Source: Clostridia bacterium (GTDB taxonomy: Bacteria; Bacillota; Clostridia; Oscillospirales; QAKW01). Taken from it: a stretch of 64,000 nt of DNA. Under the pieces are notes generated by a model, which was not told where the DNA came from, made no database searches, and saw only the letters and a list, made by a program, of their open reading frames with translations. The stretch is from assembly GCA_017464525.1 (NCBI GenBank), contig JAFTZM010000022.1, forward strand, positions 30,562 to 94,561. The letters run 5' to 3'. The number at the start of each line of letters is the position of its first letter. Within the stretch, counting starts at the first letter, position 1. Positions 48,494-52,775 of the stretch are shown here, one piece after another. The translations under genes were made by a program, and so were the position numbers.

Positions 48494-48603
48494 CTCCTTT
48501 TGAGATTATTCTAACATAGAAAATGATGATGTCAATAAAAACGGTTACGAAACATTTTCGTAAAAAATCCCCGCCTGTATTTGCAGGCGGGGATATATTT
48601 CTT

Positions 48604-49065
48604 TCAGGAGAGTACACCTGCGGCACTGCAGGTGATGGTGACCGATTGTTCCACTGTTTTGGTGGCAATGCCAAGGAAGTACCGCTTGGCGGTGATATCA
48701 CCGATGGCTTTATTGCCGCTCTTGGTAGCTGTTTTTTCTGTGATTTTCCAATTGGAATCAGTGATAGAGGTCGTAATGCTGGCTACGGTGCAGGTGGCCG
48801 AGCTGCCGGTATAGGTAAAGGTGGCGCTCAACGTTGCTTGCCAAATTTCTCTACCGCTTTCACTACGGTAAACAATACTTTTTTGCCCGCTTTTGGTGTT
48901 GGTGGCTCTCGTTGCCGGGCCTTCTGTTACTGCGCCGATCTCCAGATAGGAGCCATCCTCAAAATAAATAACCTCCGCCGGTTCTGCCGGGCATACTGCC
49001 GAAGCAGGAAGGCAACAGAGAACTGTGCATAAAACTGTTACTAATAAAATGCTGATTTTTTTCAT
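48604..49065 (-). CDS. secreted beta-rich protein (third gene of the PadR-HAAS module)
   Basis: Signal peptide; Ser/Thr-rich. Confidence 0.4.
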   Translation of the reverse strand: MKKISILLVTVLCTVLCCLPASAVCPAEPAEVIYFEDGSYLEIGAVTEGPATRATNTKSGQKSIVYRSESGREIWQATLSATFTYTGSSATCTVASITTSITDSNWKITEKTATKSGNKAIGDITAKRYFLGIATKTVEQSVTITCSAAGVLS

Positions 49066-49081
49066 GGCAACTTCCCTTGCG

Positions 49082-49483
49082 TTATTCCTCGGTCACTTCA
49101 ATAGGGCCTTCTATGTATACATTTCCTCTGTGCTCATCATGTGCATCGATCAGTTCGATGATCAATGTGGTGGCCAGCATGGCAAGAGTGATGATCACCG
49201 CTACGATCACCGCCTTGCGAATGTCAATGGCCTTTCGGACAGTTTGCGGCTCTGCCTCTGAAAGAAGCTGCCGGGCAATTTCCTTGGGATCTCCGAAATG
49301 ATCGTAGATCTCCCGGATATCCGTTACAGCGTGCTCCTCTGTATAGTCGTAGATACTGTTGCTGATATCCCGGATGATCTCCTTTTTTTGCCGTCGGGGG
49401 CAAACCAGATTTTTCTTGATCTGTAAAAGAAATTGCCGAATTTCCTTATCTAAATTATGCATCATTGTTTTCCTCTCTGCCAA
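49082..49483 (-). CDS. DUF1700/HAAS-domain membrane protein (PadR-associated sensor)
   Basis: N-terminal helical HAAS-like region and C-terminal TM; immediately downstream of PadR. Confidence 0.55.
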   Translation of the reverse strand: MAERKTMMHNLDKEIRQFLLQIKKNLVCPRRQKKEIIRDISNSIYDYTEEHAVTDIREIYDHFGDPKEIARQLLSEAEPQTVRKAIDIRKAVIVAVIITLAMLATTLIIELIDAHDEHRGNVYIEGPIEVTEE

Positions 49484-49832
49484 GGATCAGCGCAATTCCC
49501 TTGCTGATCTCGTCGTACTCCATGAGAATTCGTTGCAGATATTCCCTTCCTGCCGGTTCAATGTGATAGTATTTTCTGGTTCTTTTTTTCCCCACCAGCT
49601 TTGAATAGGTAGAAAGATATCCTGCATCCACCAGCTTATAAAGGATCAGGTAAAGGGTTCCTTCCAGCATGGTGAACCGCCCGCCGCTTTTTTCATTGAA
49701 CAGCTGCGTGATCTGGTAGCCGTAAAGATCCTCCTCGCAAAGTAAATGCAGGGCGAGGATCTCTGTGCAGCCACGTTTAAAATTTTCCTGATTTTGACTC
49801 AACCACCCACCCCCATTTCCTATCTTAAGCAT
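49455..49832 (-). CDS. PadR family transcriptional regulator
   Basis: Winged-helix PadR motif region ILALHLL...LYGYQITQL...LEGTLYLILYKL; start uncertain (ATG 49832 or TTG downstream). Confidence 0.75.
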   Translation of the reverse strand: MLKIGNGGGWLSQNQENFKRGCTEILALHLLCEEDLYGYQITQLFNEKSGGRFTMLEGTLYLILYKLVDAGYLSTYSKLVGKKRTRKYYHIEPAGREYLQRILMEYDEISKGIALILGREENNDA

Positions 49833-49868
49833 ATTATAACTGTAATTATAATTTTTGTAAATACTTTT

Positions 49869-49897
49869 AGTGTAAATATATGTTGACAAAATATATT
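49869..49897 (+). promoter_or_regulatory. sigma-A-like promoter TTGACA-N17-TATACT upstream of the C10 peptidase gene
   Basis: AT-rich island leader. Confidence 0.4.
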
Positions 49898-50041
49898 TAT
49901 ACTGTTATACTGAAAATGTAAGATCAAGGAAAGGGTTGAGTCCAATGGTTCATGAATGAACTGTCTATTATGATGCATATACAAAGACAGATTTTTAGGC
50001 CTGTTTATGTTGTCTGAAAATTTACAATAACTATAAAAAAG

Positions 50042-51279
50042 ATGAAAACTTTAATGAAACGTATACGAGTAATTGCGTTTACCGCTATTCTGGTTTTGCT
50101 TCTGCAATCTGGAACCTTTGCTGCAACACCGAAAACAACAATTACCCCTAAACAAGCTGCTGATCTTGCAATTTTTTATTATTGCCTTAATGCCGACGGC
50201 GATAACGTGATTGAAATTGATGAATATATTGCTACTCCTCTTTATGATGACAAAGGAAACGTTACATATTACAGTGTCGATTTTTTCTATCAGAAAACAG
50301 CAAAAGGATACGTTGTTGTAGGCGCCGATTTAAATTATATTCAATGTCCAGAGTTGTGTCCGGGTGAGCAGTTTATCTATTACTCTAATGCACTTAACGG
50401 AATGATTACAATCTATTATAATCCCTATGAGGTCTTTTTTGTTAATGAAAAAGAGGCTACATTTTATGATCTGTATAATGAAGTGTTAGAAGAAAAAGTT
50501 GATGGTACAGTTTATGAAGGAGATTTACAGGAAAATCGTGAACTATTACAATTGGTTTCCAGAACAATTGATCCATTGACGGACCGAAAAGTCTTTACTC
50601 AGCATCCGGTAACATATTTGGAAAGCTTAGGTTATACATCGGTAACAGGCGGTGAGTATGGAACGATAGAATCGGCAATGGATAATGCTGGTGCATTTAA
50701 TTTGATGTTTACAGTTACACAGAGTAATCCGTATGTATTATCTACAGGAACAAAAGTAGATAATGGTGGCCATTGTGCGATAACACAGATATCGAATATA
50801 ATGAGGTATCTCAAATCAAAATATAGTTTAAATTATCCTTCTACATATGAAAAAACGTTTGATGCCGTACTAAATAAAGCAGTATCTTTAGGATACTTTA
50901 ATAATACTTATAATGGATCTGGAGTAAGCGGGAGCAATATTTCAAATCTGGAAAAGTAGAGAAAAAATCCGGACAATATGCAGACTGGGATTTTTTGACT
51001 AGTAAGATTGATGCGGGTATCCCGGTTATATTAGGACTTAGTGCTGAAAGTAACACTTTTACATATACTTCTCACTTAACTGTAGCGTTTGGTTATAATT
51101 CTGTAAGCGGATGGAGAGATAATAATTATGAGATATATTCATTCGCAAAATTATATGATGGACATCCACAAAGAGGAAAATGCTATGTGTGCTGGGATAT
51201 GTTGACTTATTTTGAAACTGATAACACAGATGGGAGCCAGATTATACGTGAAATGTGGGCGCTTTATCCAAAAAAATAA
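50042..51279 (+). pseudogene. streptopain-like (peptidase C10 family) secreted cysteine protease, split by a frameshift near 50914-50956
   Basis: Signal peptide; Cys motif NGGHCAITQISNIMRYL...NYP in frame 2 (resembles the streptopain region around the catalytic Cys, recalled from memory). His motif SHLTVAFGY and GW...N lie in frame 1, which stays open upstream to 50914. About 35% GC. Confidence 0.5.
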
Positions 51280-51922
51280 TAAAAAAAACAATACCACAAC
51301 CAGTGCAATTATCAGTTGTATCCTGATATTACTTTCAATACTGTTCACCGGATGCTCTGCAAGGGCGTTCCGGCCGGAACAGTTAAATGTTGAAGGGGCA
51401 TCAAATGGGGTGTTAAACGCCGAATATGCCCAGCTGTTCTGGGAGGAGATCGTGCAAAAGGCGGCTCCGGATGAAAAGACCGAGGCGGAGGCAGACTATA
51501 CCTTTACTCTGATGGAGGCCCCCGGAGAAAACCGGCGGATCTGCACCTACCGTCTTTCGGTGGAGGAGCAGCTGCTGATGGGGGAGGAAGGCTGCTACCG
51601 CCTGACTCCGGACGCTCTTGCCCTGGCGCAGGAACTGGCCTATCCCGGCAATTACCTTTCAACCTCTGCTGTTGAATATGATCTGCAGGAAGGAACCTAT
51701 ATGGTGATTACCGCTCAGTATGACGATTGTATTCTGGCTTCGTTGTCCGACTCCCCAGAGATCAAGATCAAACTCAACACCAGTTCGAATTATTTTAACC
51801 TGGGAGATAAGGTGACCGGGGATCTTTCATATTGTAAAAAGGACGGCAATCGGATGGAGGCCGATTGCAGCGGCTTGTATACAGAAAAAGAACTCTCCGA
51901 ACGCCCGAATATAGCTTATTAA
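51230..51922 (+). CDS. hypothetical lipoprotein
   Basis: Lipobox LFTGCSA; start lies inside the 3' end of the C10 fragment across two poly-A runs; start uncertain. Confidence 0.4.
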   Translation: MGARLYVKCGRFIQKNNKKNNTTTSAIISCILILLSILFTGCSARAFRPEQLNVEGASNGVLNAEYAQLFWEEIVQKAAPDEKTEAEADYTFTLMEAPGENRRICTYRLSVEEQLLMGEEGCYRLTPDALALAQELAYPGNYLSTSAVEYDLQEGTYMVITAQYDDCILASLSDSPEIKIKLNTSSNYFNLGDKVTGDLSYCKKDGNRMEADCSGLYTEKELSERPNIAY

Positions 51923-51928
51923 AAAGTG

Positions 51929-51955
51929 ACCCCCGCCTGCAATGCAGGCGGGGGT
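51929..51955. terminator. bidirectional terminator hairpin
   Basis: ACCCCCGCCTGC-AAT-GCAGGCGGGGGT. Confidence 0.55.
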
Positions 51956-51959
51956 CGTC

Positions 51960-52775
51960 TTATATGGCGCCGAGGCGTCTCAGAATAGATTGTGCAGCGG
52001 CGGGATCGTCGCTGGTAAACATCCGGCAGCCGAGGTCAAGGGCTTTTTGATACATTTCCTCCGTATCCGGCACCAGAATGCAGGGGAGGATCTCCTGCTC
52101 TGCGGCATAGGCGTAATCTTCGGCAAAGCCTGCGGGCTGCTCTTCGTCCTTGCGCCAGATGGCCGCCCAATCCAGAAAGGATTCCTGGGGCCGTGCGGCG
52201 TGGTCCTTGGGGCGAATGTAGTCCAAATAGCCGTGAAGCACAAACTTACCCGGCCATTTTTCGGCGCAATACTCTAAATTCTGCTCCGAAAAGGAGTTCA
52301 TGATGCTCTTTTCCGCCATCCCGTATTGATCCAGCAGCGACGCCAGCTTATCGATGGTGGCAAAGGCACGCTCCCGGCCGAAGTCCATGGGGTATTCCTT
52401 CAGCTCCCAATTGATGACCGTATGGGTGGGGCTGACCAGCTCCAAAAACTCCTCCACAGTGGGGATCTGTACCCCCTTGAATTCCTTCCCCTTCCAGAAG
52501 CCGGCATCCAGGGCTTTGATCTCAGCGAGGGTCATCTCGTCCACCAGACCTTTGCCGTTGGTGGTGCGCTCCACATCTCGGTCGTGGATGAGGACGAGGT
52601 GACCGTCCTTGGTCATCCGTACGTCGGTCTCAATGGCGTCCAGCCCCAGCTCCACTGCCGCCCGGAAGGCAGGCATGGTGTTTTCGGGAAAGTGGGCCCG
52701 ATCCCCCCGGTGGCAGCCCAGCAGTATGCGATGGCCGTCCAGCCGGGGGTTGTTGGCACGTAATTTATCGGCCAT
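51960..52775 (-). CDS. glycerophosphodiester phosphodiesterase
   Basis: GDPD motifs HRGDRAHFPENT and ETDVRMTKDGHLVLIHD. Confidence 0.8.
   Translation of the reverse strand: MADKLRANNPRLDGHRILLGCHRGDRAHFPENTMPAFRAAVELGLDAIETDVRMTKDGHLVLIHDRDVERTTNGKGLVDEMTLAEIKALDAGFWKGKEFKGVQIPTVEEFLELVSPTHTVINWELKEYPMDFGRERAFATIDKLASLLDQYGMAEKSIMNSFSEQNLEYCAEKWPGKFVLHGYLDYIRPKDHAARPQESFLDWAAIWRKDEEQPAGFAEDYAYAAEQEILPCILVPDTEEMYQKALDLGCRMFTSDDPAAAQSILRRLGAI

What the first reader, a model, noticed from the sequence alone, without database searches (positions are those of the whole stretch)
49455..51300. Second AT-rich islet: frameshift-disrupted streptopain-like (C10) secreted cysteine protease beside a PadR-HAAS-secreted-protein module
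50042-50959 (frame 2) has a signal peptide, a propeptide-like region and the motif NGGHCAITQISNIMRYL...NYP. This strongly resembles the streptopain catalytic-Cys region, recalled from memory. The catalytic-His region SHLTVAFGYNSVSGWRDNNYEIY continues in frame 1, which is open back to 50914. A single-nucleotide frameshift between 50914 and 50956 therefore splits the gene. GC is about 35% versus 57% in flanks, and the gene has its own TTGACA-N17-TATACT promoter. Both foreign islets in this window carry inactivated secreted cysteine-peptidase genes.
Basis: partly seen in the sequence, partly recalled or inferred. Interest (0 to 1): 0.55.

Follow-up and report, generated by a model that had tools for sequence, protein, structure and literature searches.

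The report
Decayed secreted cysteine protease gene
This is a dead copy of a gene for a secreted papain-type cysteine protease in a Clostridia genome from a metagenome. It was broken by a deletion of about 31 bases, while the lipoprotein gene that always follows this protease family is still intact. The pseudogene is ordinary, but the family behind it is unstudied.

Summary
ORF 50042-50959 stops at a TAG, and the protein continues in frame 1 to 51279. Eight full-length homologues (418-459 aa, 42-57% identity) cover both parts in one ORF.

The lesion is not a simple 1-nt slip. The window lacks a roughly 10-residue segment with a conserved YGY motif that all 26 aligned relatives have, so a deletion of about 31 nt fits best. 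The Shine-Dalgarno sequence is also gone. Four assemblies from at least two sequencing runs are 100% identical across the lesion.

The family call is only partly right. The fold is papain-like (clan CA) with Cys245, His345 and Asp373. The repaired protein passes Pfam Peptidase_C39_2 (31.5 bits, cut-off 24). Peptidase_C10 never reaches its cut-off. Some distant relatives carry a weak streptopain-type I69 prodomain signal.

New here: in all 10 loci where the downstream DNA is visible, the protease is followed directly by a lipoprotein gene, of two unrelated types. The protease has decayed independently in three lineages (window, L012, L015) while the lipoprotein stays intact (dN/dS 0.15-0.23). 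I read the lipoprotein as a cognate inhibitor or immunity partner; that is inference. The PadR-HAAS genes are real neighbours but not conserved partners.

The parts
49883..49911 (+). Promoter of the protease-lipoprotein operon (TTGACA, 17 nt, TG-TATACT)
   Evidence: Consensus scan, 11 of 12 matches with a TG extension. The homologous promoter is present in L012. Function is inferred.
49869..49903 (.). 17-nt-arm palindrome overlapping the -35 hexamer; candidate operator for the divergently encoded PadR regulator
   Evidence: Inverted repeat I1, 88% complementary, 1 nt between the arms. It is not conserved in L012, which has no PadR neighbour. The operator role is inference only, and AT-rich palindromes are common by chance.
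49912..50041 (+). 5' leader, about 69% identical to the L012 leader, with a conserved block GAGTCCNATGGTTCAT at 49938-49953; the Shine-Dalgarno sequence is missing
   Evidence: Alignment and motif search. The window reads ctataaaaaagATG, whereas L012 and all other protease loci examined have AGGAG/GGAGG-type sequences. No Rfam match.
50042..50959 (+). Protease pseudogene, 5' part (frame 2, 305 aa): signal peptide (about 50042-50122), conserved N-terminal pro-region, and the first half of the catalytic domain with Cys245 (codon 50774-50776); ends at premature TAG 50957-50959
   Evidence: Cys is invariant in 26 and nearly invariant in 99 relatives. The signal peptide is read from the sequence (MKTLMKRIRVIAFTAILVLLLQSGTFA/A).
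50950..50961 (+). Deletion junction and frame change (GGAAAAG|TAGAG). About 31 nt (28-40 depending on the comparator) are missing, including the codons of the conserved '..YGY..' segment
   Evidence: Codon-level comparison with L002 and L004 and three-frame translation. The segment is present in all 26 aligned relatives. In the P0002 model it covers the end of helix 298-311 and the start of strand 316-322.
50956..51279 (+). Protease pseudogene, 3' part (frame 1): second half of the catalytic domain with His345 (codon 51073-51075) and Asp373 (codon 51157-51159)
   Evidence: His360 and Asp388 (P0002 numbering) are nearly invariant in 99 relatives. Alone, this part scores 22.1 bits against C39_2, below the cut-off.
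51248..51922 (+). Intact gene for a 224-aa lipoprotein (type A partner; lipobox LFTG-C, Cys codon 51353-51355). It has a GTG start after GGGAG and overlaps the 3' end of the protease reading frame
   Evidence: Homologues lie directly downstream of the protease in L002, L004, L012 and L015. dN/dS is 0.15-0.23. No family or structure match.
51928..51956 (.). GC-rich hairpin at the operon end, shared with the convergent GDPD gene
   Evidence: The scan calls it a terminator on the minus strand (for GDPD); on the plus strand the downstream T-run is only partial. The scan lists no strong terminator (13-pair GC-rich class) between the protease promoter and this hairpin; two weak plus-strand matches are at 50671-50692 and the reverse-strand ones within the genes.
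49455..49832 (-). PadR-family regulator gene, divergent from the protease promoter (own promoter 49861-49833)
   Evidence: PF03551, 64 bits. Promoter scan.
49082..49462 (-). HAAS/DUF6120 membrane signalling protein gene, overlapping the PadR stop
   Evidence: PF22564 36 bits and PF19615 37 bits. The HAAS-PadR pairing is described in PMC11237479.
48604..49065 (-). 153-aa signal-peptide protein, third gene of the PadR operon, followed by the bidirectional terminator 48567-48594
   Evidence: No family hit.

Best explanation
Positions 50042-51279 hold the remains of one gene for a Sec-exported zymogen of a papain-fold (clan CA) cysteine peptidase.

Layout of the ancestral protein:
- a signal peptide;
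- a conserved pro-region of about 190 residues, streptopain/I69-like in layout;
- a catalytic domain of the Pfam Peptidase_C39_2 type with a Cys245-His345-Asp373 triad.

Why the gene is dead (shown):
- A deletion of about 31 nt removed a conserved helix-strand segment and shifted the frame. Cys and His are now in different frames, and translation stops at 50957.
- The ribosome-binding site has also been lost.

The operon: the gene is the first cistron of a two-gene operon driven by the promoter at 49883-49911. The second cistron (51248-51922) encodes a membrane-anchored lipoprotein that accompanies every family member I could examine. It remains intact and under purifying selection.

Inferred: in intact relatives the protease is secreted, matures by removal of its pro-region and cleaves extracellular or cell-surface targets. 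The lipoprotein sits on the outer face of the membrane as its specific inhibitor or immunity partner, as Spi, the staphostatins and Bfi do for their proteases. In this lineage the protease became dispensable or harmful and is decaying. The partner is kept, possibly for protection against the same protease made by neighbouring cells.

The adjacent PadR-HAAS operon is a lineage-specific neighbour. It may regulate the shared intergenic region, but it is not part of the conserved module.
For: One gene in two frames:
- Full-length single-ORF homologues cover both parts.
- The repaired protein passes PF13529 across the junction: residues 242-354, 31.5 bits against a cut-off of 24.

Fold and catalytic residues:
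- Cys246, His360 and Asp388 are nearly invariant in 99 relatives.

Real decay rather than error:
- The conserved segment is absent from all three frames and present in all 26 aligned relatives.
- The Shine-Dalgarno sequence is missing, unlike in every other protease locus examined.
- Logan contigs from SRR12529366 and SRR12529360 and an ENA scaffold are 100% identical over 4.8-16.7 kb.
- No intact close orthologue exists among 5.8 billion protein clusters: the next hit after the truncated form itself is 57% identical.

Recurrent decay with the partner retained:
- In L012 only the start codon, a 31-nt fragment and the 3' end of the protease survive, upstream of an intact 224-aa lipoprotein gene.
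- In L015 the protease has a TAA at codon 4, a deletion of 81 codons that removes the catalytic Cys, and a further frame change. Its 226-aa lipoprotein gene is intact.
- Lipoprotein dN/dS is 0.15 and 0.23.

Conserved pairing:
- All 10 loci with visible downstream DNA have an adjacent same-strand lipoprotein gene.

Precedent:
- Co-transcribed protease-inhibitor pairs in clan CA, some with lipoprotein inhibitors, are described in PMC2873492.
Against: - The inhibitor or immunity role of the lipoprotein rests on context only. It has no family, PDB or fold match; the AF2 model failed at pLDDT 36.9.
- The lipoprotein does not resemble the protease pro-region.
- The four identical assemblies probably sample one strain population from a single study, so independence is limited.
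- With the nearest intact homologue at 57% identity, I cannot prove that this lineage ever had the missing 10 residues. A natural short variant plus a 1-nt deletion is not strictly excluded.
- No expression data are available.
- The I69 link for the pro-region is sub-threshold (22.9 bits against a cut-off of 25 in P0095; none in the window protein).
Confidence: 0.8

Rival explanations
1. The gene is intact in the organism, and the frame change is a sequencing or assembly error in a short A-run.
For: The junction lies in GGAAAAG (A4), and restoring one A restores the frame. The source is metagenome-derived.
Against: - Three further assemblies, made with two pipelines from at least two runs, are identical.
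- A 1-nt fix still leaves about 10 universally conserved residues missing.
- The Shine-Dalgarno sequence is absent.
- Related lineages show much larger deletions of the same gene.
Confidence: 0.03
2. Programmed -1 ribosomal frameshifting. tRNA-Lys slips from AAG to AAA at G GAA AAG next to the TAG stop, helped by the hairpin at 50957-51001, and produces a full-length protease at a low, regulated level.
For: A -1 slip at A-AAG followed directly by a stop codon gives exactly the homologous continuation ...NLEK-VEKKSG.... An imperfect 14-nt inverted repeat starts at the stop codon.
Against: - The hairpin is not better than shuffled sequence (z = -1.67; 11 of 200 shuffles fold as well).
- The heptamer is not of the X XXY YYZ type, and I saw no Shine-Dalgarno stimulator at the usual distance by eye.
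- No homologue uses two frames.
- The product would still lack the conserved helix-strand segment.
- The gene also lacks a ribosome-binding site.
Confidence: 0.04
3. It is a true member of peptidase family C10 (streptopain/SpeB).
For: - It has the same zymogen layout: signal peptide, long pro-region, then Cys...His catalytic domain.
- The Cys motif GHCAITQISNIMRY resembles my recollection of the streptopain Cys helix; I did not check this against a sequence.
- PF01640 is the second-best Pfam hit in 2 of 8 and 6 of 99 relatives (best E 8.5e-5), and the C10-type pro-region family I69 is hit by 11 of 99 (best E 7.2e-6).
Against: - The repaired window protein has no PF01640 hit at E<=10.
- The one PF01640 score reported, for P0002, is below the cut-off (19.8 against 26).
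- PF13529 passes its cut-off in 8 of 8 close relatives.
- Profile searches of PDB sequences find no streptopain or interpain.
Confidence: 0.12
4. The pair is an interbacterial effector-immunity module rather than a housekeeping protease with a self-protecting inhibitor. The secreted peptidase attacks the cell wall or surface of competitors. The lipoprotein is the immunity protein, and the window carries an orphan immunity gene.
For: - The downstream partner comes in two unrelated types at the same position.
- It evolves faster than the protease: 60-64% against 86-95% aa identity in the L004/L015 comparison.
- It is retained under purifying selection after three independent protease losses.
- PF13529 domains act as lytic domains in endolysins of phages of Gram-positive bacteria (PMC8223927).
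- The family is rare and patchy, with AT-rich genes in different genomic contexts.
Against: - No cell-wall-binding domain is present in the close family.
- No PADLOC or secretion-system context was examined, and nothing is known of the substrate.
- A long conserved pro-region is more typical of zymogen proteases than of antibacterial effectors.
- All of the evidence is contextual.
Confidence: 0.15

Closest known systems
Pfam Peptidase_C39_2 (PF13529), C39-like papain-fold peptidases, e.g. PDB 3erv from Bacillus anthracis
   Different: It has a Sec signal peptide plus a conserved N-terminal pro-region of about 190 residues. It is not fused to an ABC transporter and has no double-glycine bacteriocin context. 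It is always paired with a lipoprotein gene.
Streptopain SpeB (C10) with its co-transcribed inhibitor Spi
   Same: A secreted clan-CA zymogen with a long pro-region, followed by a co-transcribed partner gene (PMC2873492). There are weak I69 and C10 profile signals in distant relatives.
   Different: The C10 profile is below its cut-off. The partner is a 224-aa lipoprotein with no similarity to the pro-region, whereas Spi is a propeptide analogue. The window copy is a pseudogene.
Bacteroides fragilis Bfp C10 proteases with Bfi inhibitors, and staphopain (C47) with staphostatin
   Different: Bfi proteins and staphostatins are 108-138-aa lipocalin-like proteins. The partners here are 217-226 aa (type A) or 382-404 aa (type B) with no detectable similarity to any known family.
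HAAS-PadR signalling dyad
   Same: The neighbouring genes 49455-49832 and 49082-49462 match PadR and HAAS/DUF6120 and overlap as in the described dyads (PMC11237479).
   Different: The dyad is not associated with the protease family elsewhere. One homologue (L002) has an ECF sigma/anti-sigma pair at the equivalent position.

Membership tests
Peptidase family C10 (streptopain) | Sequence-profile match to Peptidase_C10 (PF01640) at or above the curated cut-off | tested here: not met
   The repaired window protein has no hit at E<=10. P0002 scores 19.8 bits against a cut-off of 26. Hits occur in 2 of 8 and 6 of 99 relatives at E<=1 and E<=0.01 respectively, best 8.5e-5.
Peptidase family C10 (streptopain) | Papain-like fold with catalytic Cys before His | tested here: met
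Peptidase family C10 (streptopain) | N-terminal I69 (Spi-like) pro-region | tested here: inconclusive
   No PF13734 hit in the window protein or in 8 close homologues. Sub-threshold hits occur in 11 of 99 relatives (best E 7.2e-6). P0095 (22.9 bits against a cut-off of 25) aligns to the family's N-domain with hhalign probability 97%.
Pfam Peptidase_C39_2 (PF13529), clan CA | Profile match at or above the curated cut-off, spanning the Cys and His regions | tested here: met
   The repaired protein scores 31.5 bits against a cut-off of 24 over residues 242-354. Hits occur in 8 of 8 homologues and 72 of 99 relatives. The two halves alone fail: no hit and 22.1 bits.
C39 bacteriocin-processing peptidase (double-glycine leader, ABC-transporter domain) | Fusion to, or operon with, an ABC exporter and a double-glycine substrate gene | tested here: not met
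   It is a stand-alone Sec-signal protein. No ABC exporter lies next to it in the window or in 9 related loci.
Pseudogene | Reading frame disrupted relative to intact homologues, with loss of conserved sequence, reproducible in independent data | tested here: met
   Frame change plus a missing conserved segment. Lost Shine-Dalgarno sequence. Identical sequence in 3 other assemblies.
Pseudogene | No full-length product made, i.e. no recoding | not testable with these tools
   The only evidence is indirect: the hairpin is not significant. Proteomics or a reporter assay is needed.
Protease-inhibitor or effector-immunity gene pair | Conserved adjacent, co-oriented partner gene | tested here: met
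   All 10 loci with visible downstream DNA have one. The gap is between -32 and +19 nt in the intact pairs.
Protease-inhibitor or effector-immunity gene pair | Partner binds and neutralises the enzyme | not testable with these tools
   The AF2 model of the lipoprotein is unusable (pLDDT 36.9). No complex prediction tool was available.
HAAS-PadR dyad (neighbouring genes) | PadR wHTH gene adjacent to a HAAS-domain gene | tested here: met
   PF03551 at 64 bits; PF22564 at 36 bits and PF19615 at 37 bits; the genes overlap.

The most novel reading that the evidence does not exclude
The protease-lipoprotein pairs are a previously unrecognised class of Sec-dependent antagonistic modules in gut and rumen Clostridia. 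The AT-rich protease gene is a frequently exchanged effector that is lost again and again. The lipoprotein, of two unrelated types, is its extracellular immunity protein, and the window shows an orphan-immunity state. The 31-of-31 identical protease fragment in L012 and the lower synonymous divergence of the protease compared with the lipoprotein would then reflect recent horizontal exchange of the effector part alone.
Probability: 0.15. Interest if true: 0.6.

Novelty: new member of a known kind. Interest (0 to 1): 0.3.

Why it matters
The window locus itself is an ordinary pseudogene in an uncultured Clostridia genome.

The value lies in what it led to:
- A small uncharacterised family of secreted papain-fold proteases: about 200 cluster representatives among 1.84 billion proteins, and 20 at E<=1e-30.
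- The family has an obligatory lipoprotein partner.
- Protease loss with partner retention has happened at least three times.

If the partner is an inhibitor or immunity protein, this extends the SpeB-Spi, staphopain-staphostatin and Bfp-Bfi paradigm to Clostridia with two new, unrelated inhibitor folds. It would also give a simple genomic signature, a lipoprotein kept behind a decaying protease, for finding such pairs.

Tried and rejected
- Sequence searches of PDB with the repaired protein and with profiles of 8 and 26 relatives found only spurious hits: a nanobody and prion protein.
- Foldseek against PDB gave nothing at E<0.01. The afdb50 library was not available.
- NCBIfam and PHROGs gave no meaningful hit for the protease or either lipoprotein.
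- The structure prediction of the type A lipoprotein from a 4-sequence alignment failed (pLDDT 36.9), so no fold search was run on it.
- Profile comparison of type A against type B lipoproteins, and of each against the protease, aligned only signal-peptide or short low-probability stretches (hhalign probabilities 68%, 15% and 8%).
- Rfam on 49400-51400 gave only chance hits.
- The hairpin after the frameshift site is not significant.
- No flanking repeats suggest a mobile element around 49300-52300.
- tblastn of PadR, HAAS and the 153-aa protein against homologue loci found nothing.
- The 153-aa protein and the 149-aa protein upstream of P0002 are not detectably similar.
- The metagenome-contig scan returned a single 1.1-kb fragment.
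Full report
**1. Observation**

The ORF list shows a 305-aa ORF at 50042-50959 in frame 2. A second ORF lies in frame 1 and is open from 50914 to the TAA at 51277-51279. The quoted motifs are present:
- NGGHCAITQISNIMRYL, with the Cys codon at 50774-50776;
- SHLTVAFGYNSVSGWRDNNYEIY, with the His codon at 51073-51075.

The protease gene is 34.8% GC with GC3 of 0.25-0.27. The window mean is 52% GC, and the core genes to the right have GC3 of 0.72-0.78. The lipoprotein, PadR, HAAS and 153-aa genes are intermediate, at GC3 0.51-0.56.

The promoter TTGACA-17-TATACT, with a TG extension, lies at 49883-49911 and matches 11 of 12 positions. PadR and HAAS/DUF6120 are confirmed on the opposite strand.

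**2. One gene, broken**

Adding one A to the A4 run at 50952-50955 gives a 412-aa protein. A search of 5.8 billion protein clusters found eight full-length proteins of 418-459 aa, 42-57% identical, that cover 90-100% of it in a single ORF. It also found the truncated 305-aa form itself (P0001) and another truncated relative (P0010).

In the alignment the window protein lacks a block between '...NLEK' and 'VEKKSGQYADWDF'. All 26 aligned relatives, down to 17% identity, have this block, and it holds a conserved YGY motif. None of the three reading frames across 50912-51010 encodes it.

Codon by codon against L002, the simplest event is loss of 31 nt: GAA AA[A ATA ... GCA TAT] GTA GAx became GAAAAGTAGAG. 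The distance between the GV and ADWDF codons is 28-40 nt shorter than in the various homologues, and always 3n+1 (my count on the sequences). In the AlphaFold model of P0002, the lost residues 308-317 form the end of helix 298-311 and the start of strand 316-322.

The window gene also lacks a Shine-Dalgarno sequence. It reads ctataaaaaagATG, whereas every other protease locus examined, including the L012 remnant, has an AGGAG/GGAGG-type sequence.

**3. Not an assembly error**

The following contigs are 100% identical to the window over 4.8, 10.8 and 16.7 kb, lesion included:
- a Logan contig from SRR12529366;
- a Logan contig from SRR12529360;
- an ENA scaffold from ERZ28654221.

These probably represent one strain population from one study. 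The record labels and an NCBI name, 'Clostridia bacterium' with locus tag IJ043_04625, came. No intact close orthologue exists in the protein database.

**4. Family**

- The two halves alone do not pass any Pfam cut-off.
- The repaired protein passes Peptidase_C39_2 at 31.5 bits against a cut-off of 24, over residues 242-354 and therefore across the junction. It has no Peptidase_C10 hit at E<=10.
- All 8 close homologues hit C39_2. Two hit C10, and the score shown (P0002, 19.8 bits) is below the cut-off of 26.
- Of 99 family representatives, 72 hit C39_2, 11 hit Inhibitor_I69 (the streptopain-type pro-region) and 6 hit C10 at E<=0.01.
- One relative with an I69 signal, P0095, aligns to the family's N-domain with hhalign probability 97%.

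Cys246, His360 and Asp388 (P0002 numbering) are nearly invariant in 99 sequences. They correspond to Cys245, His345 and Asp373 of the repaired window protein.

The protein is therefore a clan-CA peptidase that Pfam files under C39-like. Its zymogen layout resembles streptopain, but it is not a demonstrable C10 member.

**5. The conserved partner**

tblastn and all-against-all BLAST of neighbouring ORFs gave two results:
- The PadR, HAAS and 153-aa genes have no counterpart next to any homologue.
- The gene directly downstream of the protease does have counterparts.

A 217-236-aa lipoprotein (type A) follows the protease in the window, L002, L004, L012 and L015. A 382-404-aa lipoprotein (type B, with an invariant lipobox Cys) follows it in L003, L006, L007, L017 and L018. 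That makes 10 of 10 loci where the downstream DNA is visible.

The two types share only the signal peptide. Neither resembles the protease pro-region. Neither matches any Pfam, NCBIfam or PDB entry. I saw no convincing terminator between the protease and the lipoprotein in the window, and a 13-bp GC-rich hairpin follows the lipoprotein.

**6. Recurrent decay of the protease**

L012 lies in a different genomic context, with Na/Pi cotransporter and M73 neighbours. It has a homologous promoter and leader (about 69% identity). After that it keeps only the following pieces of the protease:
- the start, ATGAAAACTTT;
- a 31-nt fragment identical to window 51088-51118;
- the last few codons.

Together these form a 17-codon mini-ORF. 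Its TGA overlaps the GTG start of an intact 224-aa lipoprotein that is 60% identical to the window's.

L015 (GCA_054297485.1) carries a copy 86-95% identical to P0003, with a TAA at codon 4, a deletion of codons 207-287 that removes the catalytic Cys, and a further frame change. Its 226-aa lipoprotein gene is intact.

Lipoprotein dN/dS is 0.15 (window against L012) and 0.23 (L004 against L015). The protease has therefore been lost at least three times independently, while the partner stays under purifying selection.

**7. Mechanism**

Shown:
- the gene architecture, fold class and catalytic residues;
- the lesions;
- the operon layout;
- the conserved pairing;
- recurrent loss of the protease with retention of the partner.

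Inferred:
- Intact relatives are secreted zymogens.
- The lipoprotein is their cognate inhibitor or immunity protein on the outer face of the membrane. This follows the precedent of co-transcribed pairs: SpeB-Spi, staphopain-staphostatin and Bfp-Bfi, where some Bfi proteins are predicted lipoproteins (PMC2873492).

**8. The 'foreign islet'**

Every homologous protease gene is 34-38% GC in loci of 48-52% GC, across 35-60% protein divergence. The co-inherited lipoprotein is much closer to host composition. AT-richness is therefore a standing property of this gene family, not proof of one recent import.

Two observations hint that the protease segment is exchanged more recently than its neighbour:
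- the 31-of-31 identical block shared with L012;
- the lower dS of the protease (0.36-0.41) compared with the lipoprotein (0.82).

Both remain unexplained.

**9. PadR-HAAS**

This is a genuine HAAS-PadR dyad (PMC11237479) with its own promoter at 49861-49833. A 17-nt-arm palindrome at 49869-49903 overlaps the protease -35 hexamer. PadR control of the divergent operon is plausible but is only inference.

The dyad is lineage-specific. L002 has an ECF sigma/anti-sigma pair and a 149-aa secreted protein at the equivalent position.

**10. Rivals**

- Sequencing error is very unlikely (section 3, plus the missing segment).
- Programmed -1 frameshifting at A-AAG next to the stop would give the right junction. 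However, the downstream hairpin is not significant (z = -1.67), no homologue is split, and the product would still lack a conserved structural element.

**11. Verdict**

This is an ordinary pseudogene of an uncharacterised clan-CA secreted protease. The family (C39-like by profile, not C10) and the lesion (about 31 nt, not 1 nt) were wrong, and the conserved lipoprotein partner was missed.

The claim about the first islet holds. Positions 5357-6424 form one frame with a TAA at 5564-5566. The read-through protein has full-length 349-372-aa homologues, one of which carries a CHAT domain.

Noticed in passing
window 5357-6424 (+): There is a single reading frame with an in-frame TAA at 5564-5566. 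The 355-aa read-through product has full-length homologues (349-372 aa, 34-47% identity, 100% coverage), one carrying Pfam CHAT (PF12770). SHGDEG...FSGCNTG gives a His-then-Cys order. This looks like a second AT-rich islet with a disrupted predicted secreted cysteine peptidase gene.
   Followed up: partly
window 5357-5720 (+): The signal peptide plus the roughly 120-aa N-terminal domain (DIDWW motif) of the islet-1 protein is 54-59% identical to the N-terminal parts of much longer proteins carrying M23 (PF01551) or 3D (PF06725) domains. It is 46% identical to part of a 327-aa protein carrying C39_2 and C39 domains. This may be a shared targeting or binding module.
   Followed up: no
L012 1021-1051 and window 51088-51118: The protease remnant is identical at 31 of 31 positions, while the surrounding homologous DNA is only about 69% identical. 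Likewise, protease dS is half the lipoprotein dS in L004 against L015. This suggests separate, more recent exchange of the protease segment.
   Followed up: partly
L015 4980-6025 (GCA_054297485.1, JAZSZN010000053.1): An independent pseudogene of the same family: TAA at codon 4, deletion of codons 207-287 including the catalytic Cys, and a further frame change. It lies upstream of an intact 226-aa lipoprotein gene.
   Followed up: yes
L002 3666-7327: An intact homologue sits on one strand behind an ECF sigma factor, a DUF4367 anti-sigma protein and a 149-aa secreted protein. This parallels the PadR-HAAS genes plus the 153-aa secreted protein in the window, but the two small proteins are not detectably similar.
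   Followed up: partly
window 49938-49953 and L012 896-911: A conserved leader block, GAGTCCNATGGTTCAT, contains a four-codon mini-ORF (ATG GTT CAT GAA/AAA TGA) between the promoter and the protease start. There is no Rfam match.
   Followed up: partly
window 48567-48594 and 51928-51956: Two strong GC-rich hairpins bracket the 3.3-kb block 48604-51922, which holds the PadR operon and the protease operon. The genes in this block have GC3 of 0.25-0.56, against 0.72-0.78 in the flanking core genes.
   Followed up: partly
L017 5608-6357: An IS200-type Y1 transposase gene lies 1.4 kb downstream of one protease-lipoprotein pair. It is the only mobile-element gene seen near any family member.
   Followed up: no
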